Of a stretch of 64,000 nucleotides of DNA, positions 1 to 64,000 are shown piece by piece; positions within the stretch are counted from its first letter, which is position 1, and the number at the start of each line of letters is the position of its first letter. The notes beneath the pieces were generated by a model. That model ran no database searches. It saw nothing but the letters and a program-made list of their open reading frames with translations, and was not told the DNA's origin. Location: contig JANJGN010000034.1 in assembly GCA_026770705.1 (NCBI GenBank), positions 4,650,001 to 4,714,000 on the forward strand, read 5' to 3'. The position numbers were made by a program, and so were the translations under genes. Source of the DNA: Isurus oxyrinchus. Lineage: Eukaryota.

Positions 1-159
1 GATAGAACTGCAAAATCCACTGCTACTAAGCTTGAAGTGCTATGACAAAGACATGGTAGGTAGAGTTGTGTGGCAACTGGAAAACTGGTTTATTTGATAA
101 GATGTTTGGTAGAAAAAACGGTAATGTGATGTGTAAAATGCGTTCGTTGTAATTTTCAG

Positions 160-195
160 AGATACAAAAGCTCAACAAAAATGTTGAAGCAATAG
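160..195 (+). CDS. 36-nt microexon, (E)IQKLNKNVEAI
   Basis: aattttcag|AGATACAAAAG...GCAATAG|gtgagc; phase 1-1. Confidence 0.85.
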   Translation, partial: RYKSSTKMLKQ

Positions 196-3100
196 GTGAG
201 CAAAATATTAAATATTAAGTATGCAGCGAAAATATATCGTAAAATAGATTTAATCATTAATTTAACCATGTGGCATGTAATCACTCCAGTGTTGACGGCA
301 CATTTTGCCCAGTTTGGCATTCCTATACATTACAAAGCCTTGGATGGCGAGTGGTAAATAAGCGACAGGGAGTTTCTTTAAGTATGCAGTCAGTTGCAAT
401 GAAGTTCAAGAAAGGAGGGTGTCAATGCTTTGTGGTTGCTAGTGAGTCCAGCAGAGCCTGAAAATTTCTGTCCTTGAGTTATTTGGTTGAAGAGATCAGA
501 TATGATTGAGTTCAGCTATTGCGGATATGGAACATGGGTGCTTTAAATTAAAATGTAAAATCGACAATCCGGGACAATGGCATCACCATTGGAGACGAGA
601 TAGAGTGGCAATAAATTTGCATCGGAATTTATAGTAGCGATTCAGTTTGCTTTAGATCAGGCATCATAACTGTTCGGCCTGGGTGGTTTGTAGAATTTGT
701 GAGTCTTGGTGCAGACCTCATAACGCAAAAAAAACTATAAAACATTTGAGCCAACGTCCTAGATTATAGTCAGATAGGGGTGAGTGATATTATTGGTGAG
801 AATAAGTGCATGAACATTTGGAGGAAGAGATCATGCTGTTGTTAGTTCTAGTGGATCTGTGAAAATTTGGATTGTCCTGCCTTTCTGTTATGCACATAGG
901 TTGGAATGAAATACGTTATTGAGAGAGATTCGATAGGAGTCCGTTCAAGAAGGGTCGAACACTGAGACGATTCAGCAAATCAAAGATAAGGCGCAACATG
1001 CCAAGATTAATCAGAAATAAACAGTGGACAACAAAGTAAGTTAAAAATTGCTTTAGACCAAATAAAGTGGCTTAATAGGCTGACAGAACAAGCAATACAA
1101 TCGAATGATTGGGAGATTAGAATCAACAAAAGTGTGATCAAGAAAATGATCAGAATTGGGAAAGGAAGGGGCAGGAAATCCAACGAGAATCAGCAAGGCG
1201 AATTTTTGAGAAGTTTCTTTATGAATGTGAAAAAAAGGGAAAATATTAGGAAAGGAAACTATCAGCACATTTCAGGCGGGGAGAAGATAACCTGTAAAGG
1301 GGAACCGGACAATTGCGGAGAAGCTAACATTTTCTTAGTGTCTCTCTTCAAGGAGGATTACCCAGAAAATTTCCCAGTAATACTAGGGGACCAATAGACT
1401 TATGAAAAAGACAACAGGAAGGAATCAGTATCTTTCAAGAGGCGATACTCGCAAAAAAAATAAATAAAACAATTGGATTGCTGTTTGATAAAAATAAATA
1501 TTGTACCAAATGAGTAGCAATTCCGATTATTGAAAATGGAAGTTATTGAAATAGAGAATACATTCGTGGCTACCTTTCAAATTTCTATATATTTTGGAAA
1601 GATTGCTGCAGACTCTAAATCACCTAATGTAGCCCAACTACTCATGAAGGGAGGGAAAGAGTACCACTGAGTATCGACCAGTTATTTTGACATCAATAGT
1701 AGGGAAATTGCTCGAACAAGTCTACTTATGAAAGGGGAATCATGCCTGATAATGCTGTAGGAGTGATTTGAATATGTTGCTTGCAGCATAGAGATAGGAG
1801 AAATAATTGTCATGGTGTATTTGAATGTTCAGGATAAGTACCTTAAGATAGAAAAAAAATGATTGGTTTTGTTGTTAATATGAATTGCAAATTGGTTAAA
1901 GAATAGAAAAGAAAGCTAGCATTAAGCAGTTAATTGTCAAGTTGGCTGGTTGTTACTAGAGCGGCATCACAATGAACAATGCACGGGACACAGCTGTTCA
2001 AAATCTGTATAAATGACTTGGATGTGGGGGCCAAATGTAAAATTTCCAAATATACTTATGACAAAAAACTAGGCGGGAATCTGTATTGTGAGGAGAATGC
2101 AAGGAGGCATCAAAAAGATGCAAAAAGATTAAGTGAATGAGCAAACACATTTGTTGGAAGATGAATCGCTTTCAATTGATGAACTTTGGGAGGGAGTTAG
2201 AGAGAGGAGAAAGAGAGAAAGAGAGAGAGAGAGAGAGATAATTCCTTAAACGGTGAGAGGTTGGCAAGTATTGATGTGCAAAAGTATCTGGTTCCTTGTG
2301 CACGAATCAATGAAAGTCAGCATACAGGTGAAGGGCGCAATTAGGAATTCACATGACGCATTTGCATCTAAGTGTTTTGAGTATGGGGTTAAGTATGTTC
2401 TTCTGCAGTAAAACAGAACTTTGGTGACAACGCACCTGGGCTAATATGTATAGTCTTGGTCTCAATACCTAAGGAAGAATGCATCTGCAATAGAGTAAGC
2501 GTAGCAGATGGTCACCTGAATATGTCCTGCAATGGCAGGATTGCCTTCTGAGAACGGTTTGAATATTCTGGCCCTATATTTTCCAGAAATTCGTTGAATA
2601 AGAGATGTCATTGTAAAGTACAAAATTATTGCACGGAATCACAGGATAATTGAGGAAAGGAGCCTGGGACTAGAGAGATAGTGTCAGAATAATTGGCAGG
2701 GCATTCATGAGTGCAATGACAAAGAATTCCTTAATTCATGAACTCTCGGAATCCTCTACCCCAGAGGTCTCAGGAATCTCAATTATTGAACATGTGCAAG
2801 ACAGGAAACGACAGATTTATGGATATCAATGACATCAATAGGCATGGGTAAAATGGAGAAAAAGGGGGAAGAGTTAGTTGATCCGCCAAGATCTGTCTGA
2901 ATGACCAAGCACACTCTATGCGGCGAGTGGTTTACTTCTACCCCTAACCACAATATTCGCACGTTATAGCCCATGGTCTAAAAGGAACAAGAAAAACAAA
3001 GTTATGAAAGCAGATATAAAAGAAGAAACCGCCTATTAGTTCATGCATGTAATATTTAGCCAGAGAAATTTTCATGGTGGAGTTAAAGGGTCTTGCTTTA

Positions 3101-6100
3101 AGGAGTCGTGCTCTTTCTGATCTGCATTATTGTCCTGGTCAGTATTGCACAGGGAATCATTTGGAATTATTTAATGAAATGCAACTCAACAGCGTTCTGA
3201 TTTCCAAGGAGGAGTGTGTAGGACTTCAAAAGTATATGAGCACGTTTTATATTATGGACAACAGAGCGGAAGATTAAACTTAAAGCAAGGAAGTATGAAG
3301 TGATTAGTTTTTCAGGACGAATGCGTAGACATGATATAAAATAAAAAGGTCAACGCTCAAGAGAATGCAGGAGAAGCGAAACCTCGGTTTCTCCATGAAT
3401 ACATCAGTTTAGCTGGCACAGCAGGTTTATAACACGAAGAATAAAACTTGGGCAATTCGAGGTCTTTTGCTCAATTGTGGCATTGAAAATAAAAACAAGG
3501 AAGCCACTTTAAGCCTTCAAAATAAGCGCCAAGTGGAATCCCGTTTCAAGTTCTAAAACTACCTTCAGTAAATTTGAGAAGGCTTTGGAAAGAACGTGCA
3601 CGGAAAACGGACATCACAAAAATAGTGGCAGGGATGACGATTTACATTTACATTGGCAGACCGGAGAAGTTAGAACTTGAAGTTGAGAAGTGAAAGTTGA
3701 GAGGGCAAATCACTGTGGGAATTAAATTTATAAGAGGGCTGTCCAAAAAAGATTAGAATCAAATTAAGTTTCCAGCAGTGGAGGATTGTGGAGAAGAAGC
3801 AGAGCTGGGAGTTACTTGGCAAAAAAATTCATTGGCAGCATGAAGATTATTTTTTTAACTCACGCAACAAGTGGTTTGGCTGACAAAGACAATGACAACG
3901 AATTTTATGGATGAAAGGAATTGCGTATGGGGGAAGGCAGGACAGTGGCAACAAGTAAAATGATCGACAGGGAACAGCCGCATGCGTGACGGGACGAATG
4001 CTCCCTTATTATTTTGCAAAGAAATTTATAATTCTGTGACCCTGCCAGTTAACAATGCATGACATAATTTGTGACTGTGACTGAAACATCCACCTGAACT
4101 ATTGAATATAAAACCTGCCTGTGGGTCAATTTGGAGATTTTCAAAAGTAGGTAGAGTCAGGTGGATCTCATACGGATGAGAACACTTATTATTGAATTCT
4201 CTCATCTTTCTATGAGCATTTCTACAAAATCATTTGTCCATGAAATACTTTACAGGTGTTATTGCATGTCGGCCACGTTTTCCAAAATAACAACATTGCA
4301 TGAATTAAACATGCCCTGAAATGAAATGGCATACATGAGACAGTTTGCAGCAACTTCCAACAAGCCTTTACTTGCTTGGCTGAAAACATAAATGAAGTAC
4401 ATATCTGCATGCTCTATCGGGCCAAATGCAAAACAAATCGAAAACAAAAAAAACGCGTTTCATTAGTAATGTTATGAACGAAATGTAGTGAAACAGATCA
4501 AATCAAAGCACAGGTGGCAACGTCTGGAATATGAGGCGTACTATTTTATGATTGTGCAGGGTCTGGCTGAAATATTACCCGTAAAACATTGCTCATTTTT
4601 GTTCTCCGCAAGCAATAATAAATTTGTGGCCTGGAAGTGAAGCAGAAGAGGCCATTGACATTCCGATTTTCAATTCTCGTGTTTCTCATAAATGGGTAAA
4701 AATATTTGTTTTCAAGAAAAATAAGAGGAGCGTGTTTGTGGAGCTGCTTTCACTGAAATTGAAGGCAGAATAGAGCGTTATTTTTCTGCTCCAGTTCGAA
4801 ACTTCGTATATTACAAGGTGGATGAGAAGGTTTCAGCGTTGTTTTAAAGAAACATGCGTTAAGACAGGTTTATGTCTTAAGGTGGTTCTCTCCTTCCTCC
4901 CCCACACCACCCCGCCCATTGCCTCCAGCCCCCGCACCCAGGCACCCTTTAAAAAAAGGTCCTCTGGATCAATCTGACAGCATGAGTGTTGAATTCCTCA
5001 GGAGATTGCTGCAGCAATCTATGGTTGAGTTGGATATCCTGCCTTACTAAAGATGGGGATATGAGCAATATTTCAACATGAGTGCACTCTTTGACTATTT
5101 GTACTCACCTAGACATGTTGGAGAGGGAATTCAAAGATAAACTGTCCCCAAACTGCCATGTAAGTTGAATGTGTATGTTTGCCTCTCCCATGCGGAGTTC
5201 AAGGTGTGTATTTTTCCAGGGCCAATGGCAGCCTCTAAAACAAATAGTGTCCAGTTAGTAACCTACTGGTTTTAATTCAATCATTAAAGTGTCCCTCATT
5301 CTAAAATAATTGCTTCATATATGTTAACATACGAACATATGAATTCAAAGCAAGAGTACATCACTTTGCTCCTCTCGACAGCTTCGCCATTCCCTGCTAT
5401 AATGACAGTTCTAATTGTAGGTTCCCAACTGTACCCGATAATCCTTCACTCTCTTGTTGATGATGGATCCATTATCCCAGTCTTAAAATATTCAACTACC
5501 CAGCATCCAGTGCATCTTGAGAATGATAAATCTAAAAACTCACGACCACCTGAGAGAATGCAAAATAATTTATCATTATCCCTGTTTAACATTGCAGATC
5601 TCTAAGTTTTATTTAAAATAGACCACTGCTTATAGACTCTGCCACAGGTTGAAAAACCCCTATCCAAACGCAACCTGACAAGACAAGTAAGGATATTATA
5701 TGTTTCAGTCATGTCACCTTTTCGTCTTCCAAACTCCAGAGGAACAAGCCCAGCCTGTAGACCCGTTGCCCATAATACCAGCTAAGCAATCTCGGTAATA
5801 GTCTACCTATCCTTCCCTGAACTTCGTCTAAAGCATGTACATCCTTCCATAAACAAAAATGTCATTTCTGAAAACAACGATGTCCCCAGTGTCCTGGTAA
5901 ACTAAAGAATATCATCCCTACTTTTATATTCTATTCCCTTTGCAACGAAAGAATCCATTCTATTTGCTTTGCTAATTGGTCACTATTCCTGGCCTTTTGT
6001 GATGTTGCACTAGGACACCCAGATCCCTCTGAACCAAAGAGCTCTGCCACCCTTCACAATTTAAGTTATATGCTCTATTATTCTACCTGCCAAAATGGAC

Positions 6101-9100
6101 AATTACACGTTTGCCCAAGCTCTACTCCATTTTCCTGATGTTTGTGCACTCACTTAAATTTAAGCTCCCATTCGATCTTCTTCACAACTTACTTTCCTAT
6201 TTATCTCTGTGTCATCACCAAACTTTGCAACCATAACTTCGGTCTCTTCATCAAGGACTTTTTTAAAAATTCCAAAGAGCTGAGGATCTCATGACACACA
6301 ACTGGTTACAACCTGTCAACCAGGGAATAAGCATGCATGCCTCATCTTAGTTTAATACTTGCCAGACGATCTTCCATCTGTGCCACTCCGTTAACTCCTA
6401 ATCGTGGGATTTGATTTTCCACAGTAACCTTCGCTGTGGCATCTTATTACTGGCATTCTGGAAATGTTAGCAGAGTACATCGACTGTGGCTCCTTCAAAG
6501 AGCTCTAATAATTGGTGAACAATTATTTCCTTTGCTCAAAACCATGGTGAATCTCTTTAACTGCATAAAATTTCCCTCCACTAACATGTTTAGTAATTGA
6601 TGCCAGTTCCTGGTGTTCCCTCTCCCACCAGTTTTGAAGAAATTAGTTGGATTATCTTTTTTCAAATCTAATGAGTATTTCCAGGAATGCAAAGACGTTT
6701 GGAAAAAAAGAACTTAATCATTATATACAATATATAACAAGACAAGACAATTGAAGGTGTGGTTAAAATATAACAAATGCACGATCAGCATACTCTGGAA
6801 CTACTATGAAAAGTTCTGAGCTTAACACTTTATTAAACATATGTTTATCTCCGAGGCAATATAACATACATTTTCCAGAATGTTATGTAAAAAAACAAGG
6901 GGCTGAAATGTAAATAGAGAAGCCAAAAAATTGCAGTGAATATTCTGCAATTTACAAAGCTGAGGGTAGATTTGATCTGGTTTACCATCTATGAAGGCAG
7001 AAATACACTATATGCAGTTTCAGAGGGATTCAGGGCAAAGGGAATCATTTTATTATTTAAAAAAATGGAATATGCGATTTCATGAGGTACATTTGGAAAC
7101 CATGCCATACAGAAATTATTTTCGAAAGTTGACCGTCTCTTTCCCTACTGGCTGTCATTCATGATCAGCTGTTCAATTACAGTTGAAGTTGATGTAAGTT
7201 TGCCACACAAAAGTATTAATGGGCAGAGTGAAAATTCCAATATAGACAACTTTCTCTCGAATCAGCCATGAGCCCACTCAATAATGCAAAATTTTCGAAT
7301 AGTAACTAGCATAATCATATTTATATGTTTCAAGATATTTGAAGTATGATTCATTTGTTCTTTTTGTCGTTAGTGCTTTCTATAGTGAGGCTCAGTGACA
7401 ATTGTTGTTTGTTGCAACTAGGAAAACTAAAAGTCTATTTATATGTCTGCCTTGATTCGCAGAATTCTCAAGGAAAGGTAAGGATATGAATGTGATTGCA
7501 ATACAATCCTGAGGTAGAGATGCTAGTTGAGGAAAACCTAATCAGCATTCAAATATTATTGTAGATTGATACCTTGTGTGGCGAAAGGCAAAGACATTGA
7601 GATTTGCTCGGGAAGTATAAACACAAACCCACTCCCCCACCCCCGCACCACACAACCGGGTGTGTTATCATCCATATTGTCCCATTAGAGAAGGCAAATT
7701 TATCATCAATTCACTTTGTTATGCCTGACCTGCAGTTGAGGCGCAATTCCAATTATGTTTACATATTTTAATGTCTTGCTCGACACAAAACTAAGTAAAA
7801 GTCCAAATCCAGTACATTTCAAATGTTCTGATCTTTCGCAATGCTGCACAAATTACAACCGAATTGACCTGACACTGTCTGACATTATTGTTAACCAATA
7901 TTGTTCGTACCTGAGGTCCCTTGTGGATTTAATTGTCTAATATTTAATGTTCCAGAATTCTATTTTTTTTTAAAATTTAGGAAAACTAGTCTTCAATAAG
8001 ACATGCTCCGGCCTTCTGTTCGGTTAAATTTTACAATAAAGAAACAGAAAATAGTTCCTAAACACTGCTGGGCATCTTTAAACTGCGGAAATAAAGACAT
8101 GTATTTTTAAAATTGGAGCTAGGCAGTTCAGCAACGATTCCAGCAGTATTTGGTCCCAAAATTGAGAAGTGGAAATGTTGAAAGCCTCCAAAAAGCCATT
8201 GTCACCGCTATTTGCTTGGAATGGGAACACATGATTGAGCTATGTTTGTAGTGCAGGAGTGTCAAGTGACATTGAATCAAGTCAGGCAGTGGAAATTAAT
8301 TTCAATCTCGTCAATTATCTAATTATACGGAGGAATATGAAAGAAGAGCTGACAGTCTGAATCCAACTCTTAAACGGACAATATTTTTTTCCAATAATGT
8401 AGACATGACTGTTTTTCACCATTACTTCTGCTCTCCTGTGTGACCTATGTTTTCATTTTTTTCCTTGTTCTGGTAGTGCAGCATCTCATAGACACTTATT
8501 TCATTCTTTCTGCAAAGCTCATTAAAATCAAATTTCAATCATTGTGGATCAATAAAATGCAACGATACTGAAATAAGTCAGGGAAGTGGGAATATATGGA
8601 ATGCTCCTTCAGAATGCAAACGTAAACTCGATGGATAATCGACTCCTTTTGCACTGTAAAGGATCTCAGGTGCTTTGCAAACGTGTCAAAATTCAAGGTT
8701 TTAAATGAACCCTTTACGGCATGACACTTGATCATTATTTTTCCCCATTATTATTTTAGAACTCGAAGCAAAGATAAAGATTGAGGGTGAGAAGAAAAAA
8801 ACATGGCAAAATACGAAGCTCCCATTACATAAGCAAACCTTTCGGGCCTAAACCCTTCAATAAGGTTTTCCCTCATTGATGCGTTGTGCCGATTTCAACC
8901 CTAGTGAACACTATTTTCTCTTTGATTTAATATGTTACATACTCAGCCAGCACATATGAAAAAATGGGAAAAAGTATGGCAAGTGCATTGTGGCAATTGA
9001 ATAAACGGGATTTGTTATACCAGTCACCCAATAAATACTCTGTTTGCGATTGTGTTTTTTTTTGCACAAATAGAGCTGAGTAACTGGCAAAACATATGGT

Positions 9101-21100: not shown

Positions 21101-21826
21101 ATTCTTATCATCTGCCCATAATTGCTCATCAGAAGTTAATGGCGAGCTGCCTTCTTGAGCAGTGGTCCATTTGGAGCTGGTGCTTCCAAGATTCTGTATA
21201 GGAGGGAGGACAGGAATCATAATTCCAATTCACGTTTGTGTACAGGTTGAACGCTAACTTGCTGGAGAGGGTGTTTCCATGTAGCAGCTGCCCTTTTTCC
21301 TTCTAGATGGTAGGCATCGTGGGTTTGTACTTCGCTGTTAGGGACCCTTGCTGAGTTACTGCAATGGAACTTGCAATTCATACACACTGTGGCAACTATG
21401 GGTCCCTGATGGATTAAGTGGATTTTGGTGGTGGTGTGTAGGGTGCCAATCAAACGGGATTATTTTGTCCTGCGTGGTACAGAGCTTCTAGAGAGTTGAT
21501 GGTGCTATACTCATCCAGGCAACTGCACTTAACTAATGTGTTTCCAAGACCAACGAAAAAAAATTGGGTGAAGGGTGCTGGCATAGTGGTATTATCTCCT
21601 GACCAAGAAAATTCAGCTCCAGGGTAATTAATTTCGAACACCTGAACGTGTCCCACAACAGCATGCAAAATCCAACACCGTCTCCTGCAAATTGATCTCC
21701 AAGCTAAAATAGATATCAAATTAATTGCTAAACATTGTTGGAACTACATGTTTGACGGTTGAAGTTATTATTATTTCATTATATTGCAGAATGTGTACTT
21801 CAGTGGCTGTGCCAGCATCCTGTGCA

Positions 21827-21860
<34 letters not shown>

Positions 21861-51800: not shown

Positions 51801-52690
51801 GCCTCTGTGGGCCAGATGCTCCTCCATAAATTTAAGCAAGCAATCAAGACACTTATTACTCAGTGCAGTACTGTGGGAGGGATTCACTGTGGTTCTTCCA
51901 TGTCCCATCCTTTCTTCTGACGTGGATACATACGAATTAAAGTCATTATTTTTCAGGGGAGCAAGGAAGAACCCTTAGTGTCATGCATATATTTTTACTT
52001 GCACAGCGGGCCTGGACACAGAATACGTGGTAACTCATCTCAAGGCTGTGTAATTCAGCGCCCAGTGCTTCAACTGCTACCTGGTTTCCAGCATGAAATT
52101 ATTTCCGAGATTACAAATGCATTCAAATAGCTTTAAAATGTTTTGAAATGTGCAGAGGTTCTGAAAGGCAGAGCGATTAAAGTATGTCTATCTTTCTGGG
52201 TTATTTCGTTTGCACATTAGTAATTTGTTGTTCCTTCCTACTTCCTTCTCACTTTCCTTCTCGCGGCCTTCTTGAATATATCTCATTCCTAATCTATTTG
52301 ATAACTTGCACCTGCCCTTCAAATATTGAGCAACATCATACGTCACCCACAGGACATATATATCACCAAAGGGTCACTTGAGTAATCCTAATGCCTGTAT
52401 AATTATTCCTTTTAAATTATGTCTCCAATAGATCAAAAATTAAGTATGAAGGACACTGGTAAGGATTTATTGAAGATGATTCTTTGCTGGAACACCGGAT
52501 AATTGCATCGAAAATAATTGCATTTCACCGAGATGTCAACATTTAACTGTACAATTTATGTAGCACCACCCCCCACCCCCCACAACTCTTTTTTCTGTCT
52601 CTACATTTCTCTCACTTTCTCTGGCTTTATATCTTCCTATCTATATATCTATCTATCTCTAAGATCTCTCTATCCATCTATCTATCACTT

Positions 52691-52759
<69 letters not shown>

Positions 52760-55700
52760 TTATCCTATGGGTTAAAGCTGATCAGCAACTTGGAGAACTC
52801 CCCTCTGCCTCAGTAAGTCTTAGATATTGTAGACAAATATATATTAATATTTTTGTTGAAATTATAACAAAGCCATATTCCCTTCATGGAACTTGAGAAG
52901 GCTGCTGCAATTCTTTATGGGCAGGAACATAAATCCATCAGAATTTTACTGAGATATAGGCAAATAAATAGCGGATGCTGGAAATGCCAAAAAAAATCAC
53001 AAACTACCTGAAGAAAACGCAGCAGGTGTGGTAGCATATGCATAGAGGTGTAGAGTTAACATTGTGAGTCCAAATGAGCCTTCAACAGTCAATTCGCCGA
53101 ACCCACCCACACTAGGGCCATCTGCCACTTGCTTGTCCTGCTTGCTCCCTTTAATGTCACCATTAACACATTCCTTATATAACATCACCATCGTCAACAC
53201 AAATTTGTCCTTTTGTCTATGAAGTCTTTGGCGATCGCTCTTCTTTGCCTCTGCCTATGATTGGTTCTCTATCCAGCTCTACCTGTCCCAACGATCCTAA
53301 ACCAGCTTATATTGCACCTCATTTCTCTATTTCCTTCGGTCTGATAAAGAGTCATACGGAGTCGAAACCTTAAAAGTATTCCTCTCCACAGATGCTGTCA
53401 GGCCTTCTGAGTTTTTCCAACAGTTTTTATTTTTGTTTTGGATTTCCAGTATCCACAGTGTTTTGTTTTTACAGTATTACATGTCTGCACTCACATGGAT
53501 GGACGAATTCCTTCAATAAATTTCAGAACTAAACAATTTATCGAACTATCTCACATGTGTAAGAACAGACATCATTTGTTCAACATTCTGTCACATTGAT
53601 GTGCGTAATGAAACATAGTGGCCTTCCCCTGTAGCTAACAACAAGAAACTATTTGTTCTGTGTTTAATTTAATCCCTATGTATCCAGTTCGTTATTTCAA
53701 TATTCAGAGTGACTCGATATTTGATTTTACCATACCGTGTGCTGTATTTCACATTAAACCAGCCATCAATGCATTTTGATGTCACAACATGCAACGCAAA
53801 ATTATACTTTTAATCCCTAGAATGCCAACAATTAAACAACATCGTTGAAGCTAAAGGTACTTGAATTTAATGTTTGTATTTTGTTGCTGCTCAAATGTTA
53901 ACTTCAGGTTCCTTAATTCTTCGAAGTATCAGAGTGGGTTAATTTGTCAACAGAGTTCTTTATTTCTAGAGGAATAGAATTATAATAATTAAGCTACCTA
54001 AACGCTTCAGCATTGCTGTTGGCAAAGAATAATTAAAAGGTAATAGGCGGTAAGATCTCCCGTAGTTGGAGTCATGGTGAGCTAAAAGCAAGATTGTTGT
54101 TGTTGTTAGAGTCAATAATATTCATGTGCCAGATGTTAGATACATCAATTGCTAATGGTAGTGATATAGTCTCATAAAACCTCAGTTATTTCATACAACG
54201 CCTCCACTTCCACATTCAGTGATGTTTGCAGTGTTGTGTACCATCAGGATCTTGAAGATAACGAAGTACTACATGCCTGCATGTAACAAGCATGGGGAAT
54301 ATTCAGGCATGCACTAATTATTCTCAGGTCACAATTGCATATTCTCAGTGCCAGAAAATGAACATCATCAAGAGGAGAGAATCAGTGCCCGTCTAAACAA
54401 ATTGTATGGCCATTGCTGAATCCCTCTTCGCCAAAATCCTCTGTTGATTAAAGAAAAAAAGAGGCAAGCGTGTAAATGCTATGACTGAATCGAAAAAGCA
54501 TAGGCCAGAGATTCAGCTGCAATTAATTAAATTTCTGATTTTTGAAAGCCATTTTTTCTTTGACGAGCCAAAATTCAGTAGCATGCTGGAATGATGTTTT
54601 AGCTTTATGAACGATTGCATCTCCAACGTCACTTAAGACACTCGATGCCAATAAGGGTTAAAGAGTCATCATTATTGGCATTTTAAGCAATTATTTATTA
54701 ATTTACTGGCATTACCGCTGGCACACAGTGGTAGGAGTATGTGCTATCTAGATGGTACACTTCAGAAAAAAAATATATTAAACCCCCTTCAGCTGAAACA
54801 AATGAACTCACACGCTTTATAATCTGGATGAAAACGGGGAATAGAAATATGAGAAAGCTGCCTCCAGAAATCTCTATCCGAAGCCACACAAAGTTCCACC
54901 TTTTACTTATTTAACAGTTCCTTCAGTAAACCTGCGTTAAAGTCCTGGAAGCAATACCAAAACTGGATTGCAGCGCTGTCTCCACAAGTTCGATAGCAAA
55001 ATTCACAAGGCAGCTCCCTTCCTTACATTACAATTACGGGCAAACAACACATGTTGGACTTGCTAATAGGTCCAGTATAAAGAAATGATAAAAATAATAA
55101 AATAAACACAGTAGGTGGCTGTAACTTAATACTTTCTTAGGTCATTGTGCTCTCTTTAAAAATATGCAGAGGACAAAGATTGATTTAGAGGGAGGCTGCG
55201 TGGGAATTCCGACTTACAAGGGTGATGGCAGGACTGAAAAGTGATAGCTAACACGGGAAAAAAAATAAACAGCTGTCAATGTATTGTCTAAAAAAGTCGA
55301 GATATAACAGATTTGGAGACGTTGGGGACCGGAAGTGGGGGGCAGTGTTGGAGGGGTGGGGATAACTCTAAAGTGTGTAGCAGATTATGAATCAGCTCGA
55401 TAAAATAGCAGTATATAGGAGCCTTCTGCTTGTGCAGAACCCAAACTGAAGGGCTAGAAATTTAAGGCAAATAATATTAAAAATCTAAACTGAAAGCTGG
55501 TGCAATCGAGGAGTGAATGATATTTCTGATATGATACTAGACAAATGGTAACATTTTGGAAATTTCTAAGAAAACTGGCTAGTTGACGTGAATAGAGAAA
55601 TGCTGGAGCTAACTAGACAAAAGTTGTGAAATGAACGGTAGTATATTTTTGTATTGTGTGATGAATTATGCAGAAATGAGGTTAGTTTTATCCATAAATA

Positions 55701-58700
55701 CAAACATAGCAATCATGTGCCGACGTCTAACAATTATTATTATTTCCAAGATCTTAACCTCATCGACAAGAAATGCAGATTGCTGTTATGGGCTGTAGAA
55801 TAATGACATTTTCAAGACAGAATCACCTCATGGCTTCAATGAGTAGTTCAAATAATTCCAGTTTACACTTTCTTCCTGCAATTGCACGTTATGTATCTTC
55901 CCTTTGAATGTTAATGTTGAAACGGTTTCTACTGCCCTCTGCATCGCACGTCGTACAAACTTTTGGATCTAAAGCGTTTCCTGATCTCAACTTTGCCTTT
56001 TCAGTCGAATTGATGTAATTTTTATCCATTCGTTACCAACACTTTTGCCAATGTAACTGATGTTTTCCTATATAATTAGACTAAAATGATTATCACACTA
56101 TATATGCAGTAATCCGTTCTCTACACAGAAAGAGCCCACGTTGCCTCACATCTCCCAAAACAGATCTCTCACCTTTTGCAGTATCCTGCTAAATTCCAAT
56201 GCCTTGCTACCAAGCCTACTACATCCCTCCGAACTTGTGGCGTCCATAACCACAGCCTGTCATTTACGTGATGCTGAAAGTTTGATTTTAATGTGAAAGC
56301 GCAGAGGTCTTATATTTTCTCAGCTGCTCACTTTAAATGGAAGACACTAGTGTCCAGAACACAAAGTGAGAAATTTGTAAGCAAACTGAGAACACTTAAG
56401 TCAAATATCGTTAACATAACGAATATTCTTCGTTAGACAAAGCATTAGCAAAGAAAGAAAAAGGTAAGCTTCAACTTATTGTTAAAAAAATAGTTTTGCT
56501 ATTGCATCTTTGGCTAACGTTAAAACACCTTATGAATTTATTCACGGTATTCAACAGTAGTCGATAGGTCCAATGTACTTCGCAATTTTTGAATGACTTA
56601 ATTACGTGGCTGTTCTTCCTAGCTTGCAAGAATAAATAAATTCCCATCGTTACTTTAAATGCTTACCCTCAATGTTTACAATCTGCATGTCATGCTATGA
56701 TAGAGAACACTTTGCTGAACCGCACGGCTACAAAAATGACCAAACATGCTGTTAAGAAATTGCAATGTAACACAAAAAGCCTTGATAACAAATTGGGTTG
56801 ATTCGGGGGTTGTGGGTGTGTGTCGAGCTCAGGAGGAATAGTCGTTGAGGGAAACTAGCCCATCCAGAGTTAGGCAAACTCTGCTTAAATTAATTTTGGA
56901 CAATTGCGTTTGGATAAGGGCAAAACGCATCAGGATAAAGATATTGCCTATGGAAGGAATTTTGCACAAATTCATCAGAACCAATACGGTCTAAAACCTT
57001 TCGATGAAATTCCTGATTTAATTACAAATTTGCTGAATGAATGGAAGTTATCACTCCTCATAAAATAATTGGATATCATCTGCTTTATTCTACGTTTTAT
57101 GGGGAAAACAGCCTTTTTCAATTGTCTGCTTCAGACATTTTCTCCTCATTTAAGAGATACCACTTTTACGAACAGCTAAAGTTAGTCTATCTATTTCTCC
57201 ATGTGGCGATTTTTTTGTGGCTGCTGGCGCCGTTGAGATTTTCCGGTCCTTTTGAAGTCAATGAAGTTCTGATCATTTTCGTTTTCCAGTCTGGCTCTTA
57301 AAATTCCATTTATGTCTGTCGTTCACATTTTGCACAGCGTGTTTCACTTGTGACCTTCTTCGAATTTCCCAAAGTGCGACGCCAAAGACTGATATGACTC
57401 AGTTTTTGGAGTTTTCAAACCTGAATTAATGAATAGTGTTACTACTGCAGGCTGATCTTATGTCTAAAGCCTAAGTGAATTTCTGATCTTTTCGTCCAAT
57501 TGTGACAATACTGAGCACAAGTTGGCAGATCAGCTTTGTTACAATTATAATTTTTAGAGCAGAGAGGGATTTCCCTGATTTACGGAGACAAAAATAATGG
57601 ATATGTGTCATAACTTTCAAGGTTTATTTACATACTTTGAATGCTTATTAACAATTACTTAATAACAGCTTATAGATGAAGTTAGGGCGGCCATATAGCA
57701 ATCTGCCAAACTGAAATATTTTCATTGCTGCACCAGAATTGGAGAAACAGCGAAGGATTCAAATGGAATTTGGTGAGTTGAAAGACGTCGTTGTTCAGAA
57801 CCCAGAAGCGAACTTATACATTTGCCGACGATAAAACGTATCTCTTCCTCAAGGAAGCATATCGTTACACTCTCGAGAGCGCTTATGGACCACGTTTGAT
57901 CGTTTATTTTCGTCTGAATTTGAACACATTTGCAATAAAGAACGACAAAGATCACACAGCAGAGACACATCATTGCTTAACTTATAGTAACGCAGATCTC
58001 ATTCGCTAGAGATATATATTGGGCTTTCCAGCAGGAACAATTGTCTCCCAGGTTCAAATCCAGTCGGTGAAGACCATCCAACTGGTGTTAAGATGTGTAG
58101 CTGTTGGAATATGGTGTAATCATCCACAACAATAGATTGGCTCATGAGACATCAAATGACCTAGGACAGACTCCACTAATGCATCAACTGAGCACTATCA
58201 ATTAAATTTGACAGCAGGGCAGGTCAGGAGAAACTGGACATATGAGCAAAATTTTGCAAATTAGTTTTTTTTTAAGGCGTGCCTTTAAGAAGCAGAGATA
58301 GGCATACATGTTTGGATACAAAATTATAAAACTCAAGTCCTAAGGGGATGAAGGCTCTGTCACCAATTTGCAACAATAAAAAAAAACCTGATATCCAGGA
58401 TTTGAAAGAAAATGCTGCAGGGCTGAAATCAATTGATACTTTCTAAGCAGAGGAGATGATTTTTTAGGGAGACACAAATCTGCAATTTTTATATAATAAT
58501 TTGTTCTGTATTCGAGTTTCTGCATGGTAACATGGAGCTGTAGTCTCCCAGGTTGTGTGAAAGGTCTGTGGCGGGAAATACGATATGCAATGCTGATTGG
58601 CAATATATCGACCATACAATTCGTAGACGCTGCACAGAAAATCAGAAAACTAACATTTTTTTTTTACATGTCAGTTCACACAAGATACTATTAATCCAAA

Positions 58701-60485
58701 TGTGCTGCTTATCGTTCCCACAGTAATTTGATGTATCTCTCACAGCAACAGTCATATTCATTGAATAATAGACATTCCCAACAGTGAAGAAGGACATCCG
58801 GTCCATCAGATGCACACTGGCTGTAAAAGAATCATCTAGCCCTTTCACGCTTTCAAGATGTTGGCCACAGCCTTGTAATTTTTCTGCCACTTCAGTTGCA
58901 CATACATTTGCATAATGGTATCACGGTTTCTTACTCTACCACCATTTCAGATATTAATGTTCCAGATCCCCCCCCCCCCCCCCCCAACACCCCAAAATCC
59001 CGCCTTTCACCACCACCCCCCGCCCCGGCACCCTCCCTCCCCACCCTCTGTGTCCAGGTTAATATGCATTGGGATGTACTCCTGGGCTCCGGCTTCTCAC
59101 CATAAATATATAACCCAGTGCACAGATCGGTCAAACAAGAAGGAGACAGTCTTACAGCCACTCTACATTGACTTCTTATAAATTCATGCACTTCAGTTAA
59201 ATCTCTCCTCTGCAACTATCAAAGAAAGCAGTACTAAACTTTTTTTTTTTCCCCAGCAATTACTCTTACTACATTCTCGAGCATATTAGCCTTATTGTGA
59301 CAGTATGGCTGGCAAAATGTCAACCAGATATGCAGCCGAGGACTAACTCGTTATTTATAGAATTCATCCATAGCCTTCTCACCCGGATTTGTTATGCCTA
59401 GTCTAAACAAAGAAAATAATTCAATTACAAATTCTTTCTGGGCTGTGGCGCCACTGCCTTAGATAAAAAAAAATATGCTCAAAAAGACCAAGCTGACTTT
59501 TCAGGGAACAATCACATTCCCGTCCAAACCTCTGAAATGAATTGGAACATTCAAAATTTACAAATCAAACCCCGGAGACTCCTTTGCTACATAATCGTGG
59601 AAGAAAACTAAATTATGTAAAATAGGTAGCAGTGCAGCTGCTATTCTGATATATTGTGATCTTGCAGCAAGCAATCAATTCGCTCTGCAATTGATCGGAT
59701 GAAAATTTGAAGTCTGAATTTACGAGGGCACGAGAGTGAAAATAAGGTGCTATGAATGTCTAAATCCTGAAACATCGCTGGTGAATGATAAGAAGTTCAG
59801 AACAGATACTCGCGAAGTTGGAAATGCATGTAAATCAAGAAAAATCATGCATTGCTTGCTAGGGCCACTTGACGTCTCGAAGCTGTGAACATCCAATGGG
59901 GTAAACGTTATAAGAATTGCAAGGATGGGACCAGAACCTAACTGTCATAACTGTCATGGAAGCCTGAGCAGTCTACGTCACCTGTCACTGTAAATAATGT
60001 TACCCACGAATGTGTTGCAAGCAGCTATAATTACAAGTGGTTGCAAAAGTCGTGAGTGAGAGGACTATTTTTCTGAATGTGGTGCAGGTGAGACCAAGCA
60101 CCCTTGGGTATGATGAAGGAGATTCTGAACAACATAATTGTCGCTGCAAATTCAGAGCATGATCTCATAGGAAGTGCATGAGACACAGGACAAATGATGA
60201 ATTTGAGGCCAAGTTGGAGCGGTGTAAGAGGGATGATAAATATATAAATGCATTATGCTGATAACATGTAATCTCTTGTGGATGATACAGAGAGGAAACG
60301 TGAGGTATACTTAATGGTCTACTCCTCTTATCTAAATTAAAAGTAATTATTTGAAAACCCCTAAATAATTTTCAACGCCGGTGCTGGTCCTCCTTTGACA
60401 TGCTCTGTGAATGTGTTTATCAAATGAAAATATTTAAATGTTTTTTTGTTGCTTGCAGAAGAAAACTTGAGCTCGAAAAGCAAAG
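160..60485 (+). CDS. Multi-exon host gene (partial, both ends outside window) encoding a long heptad-repeat coiled coil from alternating 36/27-nt microexons
   Basis: 18 AG...GT-bounded exons of exactly 36 nt (8) or 27 nt (10), all phase 1-1. Joined translation has no stop: EIQKLNKNVEAI-ELEAKIKIE-EIAALKKNLKDS-EEHLRKKNK-EIEEVNVLFAEC-NSKMKEKLQ-EIESLKRKFGDA-EKSFHEKEI-EKGLNQKNL-ESKLKTQQT-EAEKLNSDLEDC-ELKFSNNQK-AIEKLKEKVKYL-DQKLSMKDT-ECQQLNNIVEAK-DKALAKKEK-ELEKQRRIQMEF-EENLSSKSK. Confidence 0.85.
430..2950 (+). mobile_element. Degraded CR1-type LINE (ORF2 RT remnant to 3' end); boundaries approximate
   Basis: YRPVILTSIVGKLLE at ~1672 and LFKICINDLDVGAKCKISKYTYDKKLGG at ~1994 match CR1 RT motifs (YRPVSLTS..GK, FADDTKLGG); many stops and frameshifts. 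Confidence 0.8.
2198..2238. repeat. (GA)n microsatellite
   Basis: Direct reading. Confidence 0.9.
3180..4040 (+). mobile_element. Degraded CR1 3' fragment
   Basis: Decayed post-RT CR1 pattern (ECVGLQK..., KYEVISF) followed by CR1-like 3' sequence. Confidence 0.55.
5560..6710 (-). mobile_element. Degraded CR1 fragment
   Basis: Reverse strand near 6208-6232 reads VAKFGDDT (FADDT motif); ggacacccagatccctctg is typical of CR1 in antisense. Confidence 0.65.
7463..7477 (+). CDS. Candidate 15-nt microexon (E)FSRK
   Basis: ccttgattcgcag|AATTCTCAAGGAAAG|gtaagg; strong donor and frame-preserving, but does not fit the 36/27 period. Confidence 0.35.
8760..8786 (+). CDS. 27-nt microexon, ELEAKIKIE
   Basis: ccccattattattttag|AACTCGAAGC...ATTGAGG|gtgaga. 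Confidence 0.8.
9718..9878. other. Assembly gap (161 N)
   Basis: Run of n. Confidence 1.
10260..10295 (+). CDS. 36-nt microexon, EIAALKKNLKDS
   Basis: cttcctcgatgcattacag|AAATAGCAGC...GATTCAG|gtgagc. Confidence 0.85.
14587..14613 (+). CDS. 27-nt microexon, EEHLRKKNK
   Basis: tattttaaaacag|AAGAACATC...AATAAAG|gtaacc. Confidence 0.8.
18090..18890 (-). mobile_element. Degraded Penelope-like element fragment (RT C-terminal part)
   Basis: YACLFIGYVEHSL, SDDAMFHNSVSDTYSFFNNRGF and RVPLVL align by eye to the PLE ORF at 34708-36603. Confidence 0.8.
20445..20480 (+). CDS. 36-nt microexon, EIEEVNVLFAEC
   Basis: gttttctttttcag|AAATAGAAG...GAATGCA|gtaagc. Confidence 0.85.
21080..21530 (-). mobile_element. 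3' fragment of an abundant CR1/L2-group LINE
   Basis: Recognisably similar to copies at ~11250, ~40900, ~48570-49390 and ~62950-63940 (-) and ~44870-46140, ~54050-55060 (+). Confidence 0.6.
21830..21875. repeat. (TA)n/(TAGA)n microsatellite
   Basis: Direct reading. Confidence 0.9.
23426..23452 (+). CDS. 27-nt microexon, NSKMKEKLQ
   Basis: cccatttattattag|ATTCAAAGATG...CTACAAG|gtattg. Confidence 0.8.
24139..24177 (-). ncRNA. Minimal type I hammerhead ribozyme motif (PLE pseudo-LTR)
   Basis: Exact reverse complement of 25144-25182. Confidence 0.7.
25144..25182 (+). ncRNA. Minimal type I hammerhead ribozyme motif (PLE pseudo-LTR)
   Basis: AGUU-CUGUCGA-A-GGGUC(AUGAG)GACUC-GAAAC-GUC^AACU: stem I AGUU/AACU, 5-bp stem II, palindromic ACGU stem III, GUC cleavage triplet. 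Confidence 0.72.
25560..27250 (-). mobile_element. Old, highly diverged Penelope-like RT relic (different subfamily); boundaries approximate
   Basis: Reverse strand 26210-26266 = ACIFIANMEPAAFQSYSGS, and upstream LNLNIFTFKATCLVQVKRVALG; cf. ACLFMGYVEHSLLQSYSGP and LTLNNFSFNSSHFLQIKGVAMG in the young ORF. Confidence 0.7.
28950..28985 (+). CDS. 36-nt microexon, EIESLKRKFGDA
   Basis: gttgtttgaaataag|AAATAGAATC...GATGCAG|gttagt; weaker acceptor but fits period and motif. Confidence 0.78.
29750..30200 (-). mobile_element. Degraded tRNA-derived SINE (DeuSINE-like)
   Basis: Resembles antisense of copies at ~32500-32860 and ~51780-52200; recognised by eye only. Confidence 0.45.
31250..32350 (+). 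mobile_element. Degraded CR1 LINE
   Basis: NYRSVSLRSVVGEIF (~31668) and DDGEPVDVVYLGF (~31844) match CR1 RT motifs. Confidence 0.75.
32500..32860 (+). mobile_element. Degraded SINE (DeuSINE-like)
   Basis: gtgctgtcggaaagtgctgt...atcccttggcgatattttgaa...gtaaatcgtatttgatattcctga pattern. Confidence 0.45.
32905..32931 (+). CDS. 27-nt microexon, EKSFHEKEI
   Basis: tcaacttgctttag|AAAAATCTTT...GAAATTG|gtaagt. Confidence 0.85.
34036..34074 (-). ncRNA. Minimal hammerhead ribozyme motif
   Basis: Identical to the other three young copies. Confidence 0.7.
34708..36603 (-). pseudogene. Penelope-like reverse transcriptase + GIY-YIG endonuclease ORF, 5'-truncated, with premature stop in the YIG motif
   Basis: IKPADKGGAVV, FYLLPKIHK, GRPIVS, DIQSLYTSIP, GVAMG, RYIDD, FLDL, then LVYCIRCSQCGLPYI*; GGA>TGA relative to the right-arm copy. 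Confidence 0.93.
36813..38093 (+). pseudogene. Second (inverted) partial PLE RT/endonuclease copy with stops and frameshifts
   Basis: Reverse-complement match to the left arm; YIDD is followed by TAG at ~37038; intact YIGETKR at ~37837. Confidence 0.9.
38476..38514 (+). ncRNA. Minimal hammerhead ribozyme motif
   Basis: agttctgtcgaagggtcatgaggactcgaaacgtcaact. Confidence 0.72.
40548..40556 (+). CDS. Candidate 9-nt microexon, EMF
   Basis: tattgttttatattcag|AAATGTTTG|gtaagc; 9+27=36 restores the 63-nt period. Confidence 0.5.
40681..40770. repeat. (CCT)4(TTC)~25 trinucleotide repeat
   Basis: Direct reading. Confidence 0.95.
42227..42253 (+). CDS. 27-nt microexon, EKGLNQKNL
   Basis: tttttgtttttcatag|AGAAAGGCC...AATCTTG|gtaatt. 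Confidence 0.82.
43480..43692 (-). mobile_element. tRNA-derived SINE 5' part
   Basis: ggagtgggaattgaacccaaggtc...gagtgtcaacaact reads as an antisense tRNA-like head (B-box GGTTCAATTCC). Confidence 0.55.
44114..44140 (+). CDS. 27-nt microexon, ESKLKTQQT
   Basis: gttgctacttatag|AAAGCAAGT...CAAACAG|gtatgc. Confidence 0.82.
44870..46140 (+). mobile_element. Degraded CR1/L2-group LINE interrupted by a SINE
   Basis: FPDDC (FADDC-like) at ~45458; similar to other copies in the window. Confidence 0.55.
45088..45340 (+). mobile_element. V-SINE-like element nested in the LINE
   Basis: tttgcatg...gtgtgggttt...ggttaggttgatt...aaattgccc...gtgtgccctgtgatg resembles the vertebrate V-domain SINE core and tail. 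Confidence 0.6.
46344..46379 (+). CDS. 36-nt microexon, EAEKLNSDLEDC
   Basis: ccattcttccacag|AAGCTGAAAA...GATTGTG|gtaagt. Confidence 0.88.
47409..47435 (+). CDS. 27-nt microexon, ELKFSNNQK
   Basis: atgtttttcttag|AATTAAAGT...CAAAAGG|gtaagg. Confidence 0.82.
48570..49390 (-). mobile_element. Degraded CR1/L2-group LINE 3' part
   Basis: Reverse strand near 49345-49368 = MFTVDCTV (FADDC motif relic). Confidence 0.6.
49740..50450 (+). mobile_element. Degraded CR1 3' fragment
   Basis: cctcaacttggattgtttcaaattctgggtgcc (RPQL..C.QFW-like) followed by CR1 3' UTR-like sequence. Confidence 0.55.
51472..51507 (+). CDS. 36-nt microexon, AIEKLKEKVKYL
   Basis: tttcttcattttcag|CGATCGAGA...TATCTCG|gtgggt. 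Confidence 0.85.
51780..52200 (+). mobile_element. Degraded SINE (DeuSINE-like)
   Basis: cagtgcagtactgtgggagg...gaggttctgaaaggc pattern shared with 32500-32860. Confidence 0.45.
52432..52458 (+). CDS. 27-nt microexon, DQKLSMKDT
   Basis: atgtctccaatag|ATCAAAAAT...GACACTG|gtaagg. Confidence 0.85.
52694..52758. repeat. (CA)n(TA)n microsatellite
   Basis: Direct reading. Confidence 0.95.
52960..53472. mobile_element. Older short inverted PLE-terminus element C with a degenerate hammerhead (53341-53372)
   Basis: Both ends resemble PLE termini in opposite orientation (gcggatgctggaaat... / ...ggatttccagtatccacag); ctgataaagagtcatacggagtcgaaacc; no clear TSD. Confidence 0.7.
53821..53856 (+). CDS. 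36-nt microexon, ECQQLNNIVEAK
   Basis: acttttaatccctag|AATGCCAAC...GCTAAAG|gtactt. Confidence 0.82.
56437..56463 (+). CDS. 27-nt microexon, DKALAKKEK
   Basis: atattcttcgttag|ACAAAGCAT...GAAAAAG|gtaagc. Confidence 0.85.
57737..57772 (+). CDS. 36-nt microexon, ELEKQRRIQMEF
   Basis: ttttcattgctgcaccag|AATTGGAGA...GAATTTG|gtgagt. Confidence 0.85.
60459..60485 (+). CDS. 27-nt microexon, EENLSSKSK
   Basis: ttttttgttgcttgcag|AAGAAAACT...AGCAAAG|gtaaat. Confidence 0.85.
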
Positions 60486-62949: not shown

Positions 62950-63940
62950 TGTGATTCAGAAAGTGCTTCGAATTCCGTGAACCACTGCACTTCTTCTGGT
63001 GCTTTTATACAGACAGTAATCTTTGGCAGTTATTTCCAAGAATATTTTTTTAACCCGGCGATAATGATGGAGTGGCGATATTATTCCAGGCCGGGGCCAT
63101 CTCTGGCTACGTGGACAGCGTCAATGGTATGCTGCTTCCACGCATCTGTTTCCCTTGATTTGTCAGTTGGTAGGTGTCTGTATTATTCAATAGCATCTCC
63201 ATTGTTTCTTGTATGTAGCATGCTCAGGTGGTTGCCGTATTTTGCAGGGGGATTGTGATGTTAATTTATGATAAACTCGTTAGGATCAGGCCTGTTGCGT
63301 GTTTTGAATGCTGCCGATTTTCCTGTCTGTTCTGGGAATGACTCCTATCTAGTCATGTGGTAGCATCCGTATTGTCCTTTAAGTTTTTTTCTTGTAGATA
63401 GTGGACCTAATTCTATGAGTCAGTGAATCCAAGTGTAAGAACAGGATTTTCAGAATATGACTTGCAATGTTCATAATATTTACACTGTTAGACCATTGCA
63501 TGTGTCTGGGTGAAGACAACCACTGGGCTTTTGATACTGGTGGATTCAATGATAATAATTGGTTGAGGAGTACAGCAATATGATTAAGTTCTCTCTTGTT
63601 GGAGTATCTAATTGCCTGGTACTTCTCCCGTGCAATAGACACCTGTCACGTAGCGGCCCAAGATTGAAATTCGTATAGGTAATGCCACTCACAAGCATAA
63701 ACTGCTTCTGCATCCAATAGGTCTTCAATAGTACCACCCTTTTTGCGAGCAGGTGAAAACATATGTGCATTTCAACTTATGCTGGAGGGATGAACATTTT
63801 TCCAGCAATAAATATGCTTGAACCTATGACAATAGCTTAAGGAAGTCCTTCAATGTTTCTTACTGTCTGAGCTGAATGACCACAAACAAGCCAAATCATC
63901 TGGTTTGGATAGTTATGAATACAGCCAGTGGATAATTGGA
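62950..63940 (-). mobile_element. Degraded CR1/L2-group LINE 3' part
   Basis: ttctctcttgttggagtatctaattgcctggtac and neighbouring sequence; similar to 48570-49390. Confidence 0.6.
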
Positions 63941-64000
63941 GAATATTCGCCTTGGATTCCATTGAATTTAATTTTGCAATCGGTCCTTCATGGCACAGTG

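What the first reader, a model, noticed from the sequence alone, without database searches (positions are those of the whole stretch)
160..60485. Two-level splicing code: any exon can be skipped in frame, but only 36+27 pairs preserve coil register
All exons are symmetric multiples of 3, so skipping any of them keeps the frame. However, 12 aa and 9 aa are not multiples of 7 while 21 aa is. Pairwise skipping would change rod length in 21-residue steps, and single skipping would insert a register break or hinge. This could act as a splice-tunable molecular ruler (inference).
Basis: inference. Interest (0 to 1): 0.7.

Follow-up and report, generated by a model that had tools for sequence, protein, structure and literature searches.

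The report
Shark micro-exon rod keeps heptad register
The tiny exons are a slice of a very long cartilaginous-fish gene predicted to build a coiled-coil rod ending in a B30.2 binding domain, and its seven-residue pattern is likely kept in step by selection on which exons survive in the DNA, not by a splicing code that skips them in pairs.

Summary
Observation largely confirmed; proposed mechanism not supported. The window holds 21 phase-1 micro-exons: 8×36, 11×27, one 15 nt and probably one 9 nt. Together they give 203 aa, exactly 29 heptads. They lie inside an ~810-kb gene with about 220 such exons and a terminal B30.2/SPRY exon, one of five B30.2 paralogues on the contig. The 36+27 = 3-heptad arithmetic holds, but 21, 15+27 and probably 9+27+27 also keep register. 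Register is visibly under selection in the DNA. In a duplicated block, 12 of 15 runs of same-length neighbours keep exactly one live exon, and exon deaths cut register breaks from 19 to 9 (random: 23). Of 18 loss events, 13 are single exons, and 10 of these leave the register intact. All four internal RefSeq isoform differences in relatives are single 6- or 9-aa pieces; none is 21 aa. A regulated pairwise-skipping ruler remains untested at RNA level and gets about 10%. This scan has reported the gene family before, on this and other genomes; my paper searches found no description. The new part is the register-repair evidence.

The parts
1..64000 (+). the whole window lies inside one ~810-kb gene. 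Parts outside the window (coordinate = C34 position minus 4,650,000): 111-nt 5' exon at -644463, likely the second half of a signal peptide; duplicated block of 121 micro-exons at -225 to -24 kb; stop-containing 27-nt exon at +151745; terminal B30.2/SPRY exon at +166507-167027
   Evidence: 5' exon; block; stop exon; SPRY, E 3e-14
160..195 (+). 36-nt phase-1 micro-exon, enters at heptad g
   Evidence: 36.4 bits; paralogue twin
7463..7477 (+). 15-nt micro-exon; with 8760 makes 42 nt = 2 heptads
   Evidence: twin at C34:6236248 is the best of 14,097 AG sites (27 of 43 letters, next 26) and lies in the matching intron
8760..8786 (+). 27-nt micro-exon of a second type (hydrophobic position 2, GTGAG donor like the 36-nt class)
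   Evidence: twin
9550..9576 (+). 27-nt micro-exon, enters at heptad e
10260..10295 (+). 36-nt micro-exon
14587..14613 (+). 27-nt micro-exon
20445..20480 (+). 36-nt micro-exon (the one that ends in A)
23426..23452 (+). 27-nt micro-exon
28950..28985 (+). 36-nt micro-exon (AAG acceptor)
32905..32931 (+). 27-nt micro-exon; no twin detected in the paralogue
   Evidence: 20.3 bits
40548..40556 (+). probable 9-nt micro-exon, likely a collapsed 36-nt exon; 9+27+27 = 63 nt
   Evidence: only splice pair above 11.5 in the 9.3-kb gap (17.8), but 5 pairs as strong occur on the reverse strand in 811 kb; donor side most like the paralogue's 36-nt exon at the same place, 16 of 29 letters, next 15; moderate support only
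42227..42253 (+). 27-nt micro-exon
   Evidence: weak twin (E 0.25)
44114..44140 (+). 27-nt micro-exon; no twin detected by blastn
46344..46379 (+). 36-nt micro-exon
47409..47435 (+). 27-nt micro-exon (low model score)
   Evidence: score 5.6; twin at 74% exon identity
51472..51507 (+). 36-nt micro-exon
52432..52458 (+). 27-nt micro-exon
53821..53856 (+). 36-nt micro-exon (low model score)
   Evidence: score 7.5; twin at 81%, E 5e-11
56437..56463 (+). 27-nt micro-exon
57737..57772 (+). 36-nt micro-exon
60459..60485 (+). 27-nt micro-exon

Best explanation
The window is a slice of an ~810-kb cartilaginous-fish gene whose roughly 220 phase-1 micro-exons are predicted to splice into a long coiled-coil rod ending in a B30.2 domain, and its heptad register is likely held by purifying selection on the genomic exon set rather than by regulated pairwise skipping. 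Shown: the exons, their a/d pattern, the terminal domain, and the non-random pattern of exon loss. Inferred: most exons are included most of the time. A 36-nt exon runs from heptad g to e, a 27-nt exon from e to g, and a 21-nt exon from g to g, so the message has to alternate. When a duplication or deletion puts two same-length exons side by side, one loses a splice site, shrinks or is skipped alone. Rod length then changes mainly over evolutionary time, by DNA duplication and loss in whole-heptad units. Residual alternative splicing is likely single-exon and leaky. Also inferred: the protein is likely secreted, since it has a hydrophobic N-terminus and no Ig or transmembrane domain was found.
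For: Register across the gene: 36 breaks in 217 junctions, shuffle mean 107.8, minimum 82 in 5000. Window chain: 203 aa = 29 heptads, all eight 36-nt exons in one phase, a positions 83% hydrophobic, spectral peak at period 3.500, above all 5000 exon-order shuffles. Coding constraint against the paralogue over the 18 pairs I supplied: mismatches 52, 30 and 63 of 164 at codon positions 1, 2, 3. Duplicated block: 26 of 121 exons broken, breaks fall from 19 to 9, random deaths give 23.2±3.5, p=1e-4. Exons with a same-length neighbour are broken in 16 of 32 cases against 11 of 89 (Fisher p=4e-5); without the first copy of the 26.7-kb duplication, 14 of 28 against 10 of 81. Of 15 same-length runs, 12 keep exactly one exon, and which member died differs between runs, with different lesions. 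The two recent multi-exon duplications are whole-heptad units: 7.4 kb = 63 nt, and 26.7 kb = 0 mod 21 when broken exons are counted. RefSeq isoforms of relatives differ by lone pieces of 9, 6, 9 and 9 aa; two of these move a junction into register (16 to 7, 27 to 21 residues). Hydrophobic N-termini in 3 of 7 relatives examined. No Ig, RING or B-box family in 63 open frames upstream of the two 5' exons.
Against: Everything said about splicing rests on DNA and on predicted database models of short, distant relatives. Register is not perfect: 25 of 91 distances between 36-nt exons are not 0 mod 7; 5 of 18 loss events leave a break; counting intact exons only, the 26.7-kb unit is 6 mod 21; only 29 of 51 windows of 84 aa peak at 3.5, and only 1 of 12 in the elephant-shark model. 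One Narcine isoform difference is out of register with or without the piece (26 vs 17). Deaths in the block share ancestry, so the p-values are too small. The 9-nt exon was picked after the fact, and splice strength alone does not separate extra candidates from background (42 forward vs 45 reverse). The death pattern fits equally if surplus exons were first excluded by splicing and then decayed. The ATG exon was not found, and 4 of 7 relatives' models lack a hydrophobic start. An Atlas cluster named 'isoform X51' (score 0.79, a lead only) suggests many isoforms in some similar proteins.
Confidence: 0.65

Rival explanations
1. One reading: a regulated splicing code skips 36+27 pairs together and tunes rod length in 21-residue steps, as a molecular ruler.
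For: The arithmetic holds: 14 of 20 adjacent pairs in the window are 63 nt. Three of 18 genomic loss events are multiples of 63 nt (63, 63, 126). Chicken BG tails vary in length by splicing, though by intron read-through (PMC5938342, passages).
Against: 0 of 4 internal isoform differences in relatives is 21 aa. 13 of 18 genomic losses are single exons. Introns in the window range from 0.7 to 7.6 kb with no regular pairing into short and long. In-frame skips escape nonsense-mediated decay, so no RNA-level proofreader of heptad phase is known (recalled).
Confidence: 0.1
2. Leaky, unregulated single-exon skipping along a megabase pre-mRNA yields a mixed population of rods. Register is selected only for the commonest isoform, and local breaks are absorbed as stutters, hinges or beta-layers.
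For: Lone 6- and 9-aa differences among RefSeq isoforms. Atlas clusters of long coiled-coil+SPRY proteins with 79-137 members and high isoform numbers (leads). Built-in discontinuities are conserved between paralogues (27-27 runs). Insertions of 3, 4, 1 or 5 residues can be accommodated, and 2 or 6 form beta-layers in trimers (PMC4786415, digest and passages).
Against: At 5% independent skipping only 44% of copies of the window's 21-exon chain would stay in net register (simulation), which sits badly with the strong genomic selection on register. This rival partly overlaps with the best explanation.
Confidence: 0.17
3. The gene holding the window is decaying, or makes a rod without its B30.2 domain, because a stop lies in a 27-nt exon a few exons before the terminal exon.
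For: In-frame stop with canonical AG/GT at +151745, whose counterparts in two paralogues are open. 31 of 249 exons are broken.
Against: Only 3 of 223 exons with AG..GT/GC carry a stop, against 5 of 29 splice-broken ones. The B30.2 frame is open. Breakage is concentrated on surplus exons. Leaving out +151745 restores 36-27 alternation, and its acceptor is pyrimidine-poor.
Confidence: 0.08

Closest known systems
Chicken BG (B-G) genes and the BG-derived zipper protein
   Same: Long coiled-coil tail written in many small symmetric exons (21 nt, a few 18 or 24; 13-38 per gene), copy number varying between genes and haplotypes, alternative splicing of the tail (PMC4046983, PMC5938342; passages read). 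The gene here also has 20 exons of 21 nt.
   Different: BG has an Ig-V domain and a transmembrane exon and no B30.2. Here there is a B30.2, no Ig domain was found, there are about 220 exons over 810 kb, and the main modules (36, 27) are not whole heptads, so exon order matters.
Butyrophilins (BTN3A1 and relatives), intracellular part
   Same: Short heptad exons followed by B30.2 (PMC6790196, PMC12841164; passages). BTN3A1 is the best solved match for the skate relative (E 6e-23), including the Trp-bearing segment just before the domain. Single-heptad-exon skipping is reported for macaque BTN3A.
   Different: BTNs have IgV, IgC and transmembrane domains and only a few heptads; none of these N-terminal domains was found here.
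Automatically named chondrichthyan models: XP_055510696 (skate, 295 aa), XP_042192744 (elephant shark, 1697 aa), XP_069775384-90 (Narcine), XP_038672306-10 and XP_038668997 (Scyliorhinus), XP_060706632 (Hemiscyllium)
   Same: Same B30.2 subtype (shared LWN motif; 49% identity over the domain for the skate protein), coiled-coil repeats of 9 and 12 aa, SPRY/PRY as the only Pfam families above or near cut-off.
   Different: Labelled TRIM-, A33-, butyrophilin- or nuclear-pore-anchor-like by similarity only; most are far shorter than the genomic array here.
TRIM proteins with C-terminal PRY-SPRY
   Same: Coiled coil followed by B30.2; TRIM B30.2 domains match at E 5e-19 to 1e-14.
   Different: No RING or B-box found in the gene or in the seven relatives scanned.

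Membership tests
Butyrophilin (BTN/BTNL) | C-terminal B30.2 (PRY-SPRY) domain | tested here: met
   SPRY, E 3e-14; best PDB match BTN3A1
Butyrophilin (BTN/BTNL) | short heptad exons before B30.2 | tested here: met
Butyrophilin (BTN/BTNL) | extracellular IgV/IgC domains | tested here: not met
   no Ig family in 63 open frames of 84 aa or more from 45 kb and 42 kb upstream of the two 5' exons (frames crossing 10-kb borders were not tested); none in 7 relatives
Butyrophilin (BTN/BTNL) | transmembrane helix | tested here: inconclusive
   best 19-residue hydropathy at most 1.6 in 7 relatives; the hydrophobic start could be a signal peptide or anchor; ATG exon not found
Chicken BG | long tail of many small heptad exons | tested here: met
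   218 intact exons on the strict list
Chicken BG | single Ig-V domain, transmembrane exon, no B30.2 | tested here: not met
   B30.2 present; no Ig
TRIM | RING and B-box | tested here: not met
   21-nt exons, 15+27 and probably 9+27+27 also keep it
   only a proxy: 0 of 4 internal isoform differences in RefSeq models of relatives
   needs long-read RNA and protein work

The most novel reading that the evidence does not exclude
A family of megabase genes in cartilaginous fishes builds secreted, probably disulfide-braced coiled-coil rods of 300 nm or more from hundreds of micro-exons that are not whole heptads. Heptad phase acts as a second reading frame: it is enforced by one-of-two exon choice and repaired by compensating losses (here a 36-nt exon shrunk to 9 nt plus one 36-nt exon lost, 63 nt in all). 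Isoforms in living tissue obey that phase and vary the reach of a B30.2 tip.
Probability: 0.2. Interest if true: 0.8.

Novelty: new variant of a known kind. Interest (0 to 1): 0.52.

Why it matters
The gene offers hundreds of natural replicates of exon duplication and death in which reading frame is never at stake, so selection on protein geometry (heptad phase) can be seen on its own. That makes testable whether splicing respects structural register beyond the triplet frame. The family is also nearly invisible to annotation, and the neighbouring paralogue may hold about 400 exons.

Tried and rejected
RNA: no RNA holder listed. Runs X1, X3 and X4 behave as DNA of a relative at about 93% identity, and the listed pieces of X7 lie on repeats. 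Whether the 9-nt exon is conserved in that relative stays open. Homodimer prediction of the skate relative gave no verdict. Three word-indexed searches for long homologues found no long model of this subfamily; the 1697-aa model came from the HMMER search. Search for the ATG exon: several candidates, none shared between paralogues. The one Ig-like motif upstream of the 5' exon has no Pfam match. Decayed 36-nt exons in the window's 27-27 gaps: best local scores no more than 2 above reverse-strand controls. Splice strength alone as a finder of extra small exons: rejected, forward equals reverse. Candidates 12042 (27 nt), 40254 (36 nt), 43405 (12 nt) and 2409 (15 nt) were left out for low model score or no convincing twin; including 43405 or 2409 would break the exact 29-heptad sum. 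Collagen and tandem-repeat explanations do not fit: no Gly-X-Y runs, no relevant tandem arrays. Rfam: no hits. Literature: 0 papers for three family-directed term sets; listings show none on this family or on heptad-register splicing by title and abstract start. Subscription journals and supplements were not seen.

Full report
Observation. The window is G000:C34:4650001-4714000 in a 5-Gb genome. Coordinates outside 1-64000 below are C34 position minus 4,650,000. A generic splice scan with recalled weights finds 9 segments of 27 nt and 5 of 36 nt on the + strand and none of either on the - strand. Over 618 kb, a splice-only spectrum peaks at 27 (58) and 36 (74) against 1-12 for other lengths and 2 and 6 on the reverse strand; that model was trained on these exon classes, so it is partly circular. 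With the window's exons held out of training, 18 window segments score above 14 bits against a reverse-strand maximum of 8.4. My final window list has 21 exons: I dropped 12042, added 47409 and 53821 on paralogue evidence, and added 7463 (15 nt) and 40548 (9 nt).

The gene. The array runs from a 111-nt phase-1 exon at -644463 to a single B30.2/SPRY exon at +166507-167027, about 810 kb. The strict inventory has 249 micro-exons, 218 intact (107×27, 91×36, 20×21) and 31 broken. With my additions there are 220 intact exons, 2206 aa, about 330 nm at a recalled 0.1485 nm per residue, with 4 prolines. Five related B30.2 exons lie on the contig at 2.71, 3.47, 4.82, 6.40 and 7.50 Mb. Micro-exons were seen in the 20 kb next to four of them; for the 3.47-Mb one only further off, at 3.7-3.97 Mb. 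The next paralogue starts with a twin of the 111-nt exon at +209457; these two are the only copies the genome search found. Relatives are chondrichthyan RefSeq models with automatic names. The best solved match is the BTN3A1 B30.2 region. No Ig, RING or B-box was found. Three of seven relatives begin with a strongly hydrophobic stretch, and 35 of 92 intact 36-nt exons have Cys at the d position. Both fit a secreted, disulfide-braced rod; this is inference, and the ATG exon was not found.

The register. Hydrophobic frequency is 0.89, 0.88, 0.72 and 0.44 at positions 2, 5, 9 and 12 of the 36-nt class, 0.79 at position 4 of the 27-nt class and 0.95 at position 2 of the 21-nt class. So 36 runs g to e, 27 runs e to g, and 21 runs g to g. 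The gene has 36 breaks in 217 junctions against a shuffle mean of 108, and 66 of 91 distances between 36-nt exons are 0 mod 7. In the window the 36/27-only chain is out of phase twice. Adding the 15-nt exon (15+27 = 42) and the 9-nt exon (9+27+27 = 63) gives 203 aa = 29 heptads with all eight 36-nt exons in phase. Spectral power at period 3.5 rises from 7.9 to 10.3 with the 15-nt exon and to 11.7 with both. The 15-nt exon has a twin in the matching intron of the paralogue (best of 14,097 sites, 27 vs 26 of 43 letters). The 9-nt exon is less secure: equally strong splice pairs occur 5 times in 811 kb on the reverse strand, and its likeness to the paralogue's 36-nt exon at that place is slight (16 vs 15 of 29). 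The paralogue has 36-nt exons where the window has 27-27-27. If the 9-nt exon is real, this lineage lost 27+36 = 63 nt in two steps. Over 18 exon pairs that I matched to the paralogue, mismatches are 0.32, 0.18 and 0.38 at codon positions 1, 2 and 3.

What keeps the register. In the duplicated block at -225 to -24 kb, 26 of 121 exons are broken. Breaks fall from 19 with all exons to 9 with intact ones; random deaths of the same sizes give 23.2±3.5 (p=1e-4). Exons beside a same-length exon are broken in 16 of 32 cases against 11 of 89. Of 15 same-length runs, 12 keep exactly one exon, 2 keep both and 1 keeps none; the first member died in some runs and the second in others, by different lesions. 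Of 18 loss events 13 are single exons (10 in register, 3 not) and 5 span several exons (3 in register); three are multiples of 63 nt. Shared ancestry inflates these p-values; dropping the first copy of the 26.7-kb duplication leaves 14 of 28 against 10 of 81. The 7.4-kb duplication carries exactly 63 nt; the 26.7-kb one is 0 mod 21 with broken exons counted and 6 mod 21 without. Two exons with stops and canonical GT donors (-63893, +151745) sit next to a same-length exon, so leaving each out alone restores alternation.

Splicing proxy. Among RefSeq isoforms of three relatives, the internal differences are 9 aa (elephant shark, just before the domain), 6 and 9 aa (Narcine) and 9 aa (Scyliorhinus); an older model also lacks 7 aa. 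N-terminal differences were not counted. None is 21 aa. Two move a junction into register and one is out of register either way; exon borders there are inferred from peptide motifs. These are predicted models of short, distant family members, not transcripts of this gene.

Mechanism. Shown: exon set, heptad pattern, terminal domain, biased exon death. Inferred: near-constitutive inclusion, protein-level selection on splice sites, length change by DNA duplication. The same death pattern would arise if surplus exons were first excluded one-of-two by splicing and then decayed; that is still single-exon choice, not pairwise skipping. Coiled-coil theory softens 'register break': insertions of 3, 4, 1 or 5 residues can be absorbed and 2 or 6 form beta-layers in trimers (PMC4786415: digest section and passages). 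A second kind of 27-nt exon that appears to replace a 36-nt one (minus 3 aa, a stutter) recurs in both paralogues.

Comparison and novelty. It works like a greatly extended BG or BTN heptad tail (PMC4046983, PMC5938342, PMC6790196, PMC12841164; passages only) but fails the Ig test for either family and the RING/B-box test for TRIM. Searches returned no paper; listings showed none on this family. Supplements were not seen. Earlier notes of this scan, read after my reading was formed, describe the same family here and in other genomes; they are not independent support. Verdict: real exons and a real register constraint; the proposed splicing code is unsupported; new variant of a known kind; interest 0.52.

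Noticed in passing
G000:C34:4859457-6396330 (window +209457 onward): The next paralogue appears to span about 1.54 Mb. Micro-exons were found in all 10 sampled 10-kb stretches and at about 0.26 per kb at both ends, which extrapolates to about 400 exons, near or above titin's 363 (recalled), if it is one transcript.
   Followed up: partly
window -579502 to -467693 (upstream of the window): A block of 20 exons of 21 nt, one heptad each as in chicken BG, in two flavours (Lys or Cys at d), inside the same gene.
   Followed up: partly
window -23268 to -9876 (upstream of the window): A near-identical 7.4-kb tandem duplication carrying one 27+36 pair; very recent, or an assembly artefact.
   Followed up: no
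G000:C34:6396401-6506400: No twin of the 111-nt 5' exon was found after the 6.40-Mb B30.2 exon, although 21-nt exons resume at 6.459 Mb. The third + strand gene has a different start, or is an alternative 3' end.
   Followed up: partly
window 34708-36756 (-): Open frame of 682 aa with a reverse-transcriptase domain (RVT_1, E 1e-8) and a Cys-rich tail; looks like a Penelope-type retroelement (name recalled), with fragments at 18.2-18.9 kb and 36-38 kb.
   Followed up: partly
G000:C21:82-118 Mb: A very large cluster of other B30.2 exons: most of the 150 scored matches lie here.
   Followed up: no
window 9718-9878: A 161-base N stretch lies in the intron between exons 9550 and 10260; an exon under it cannot be excluded.
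   Followed up: no
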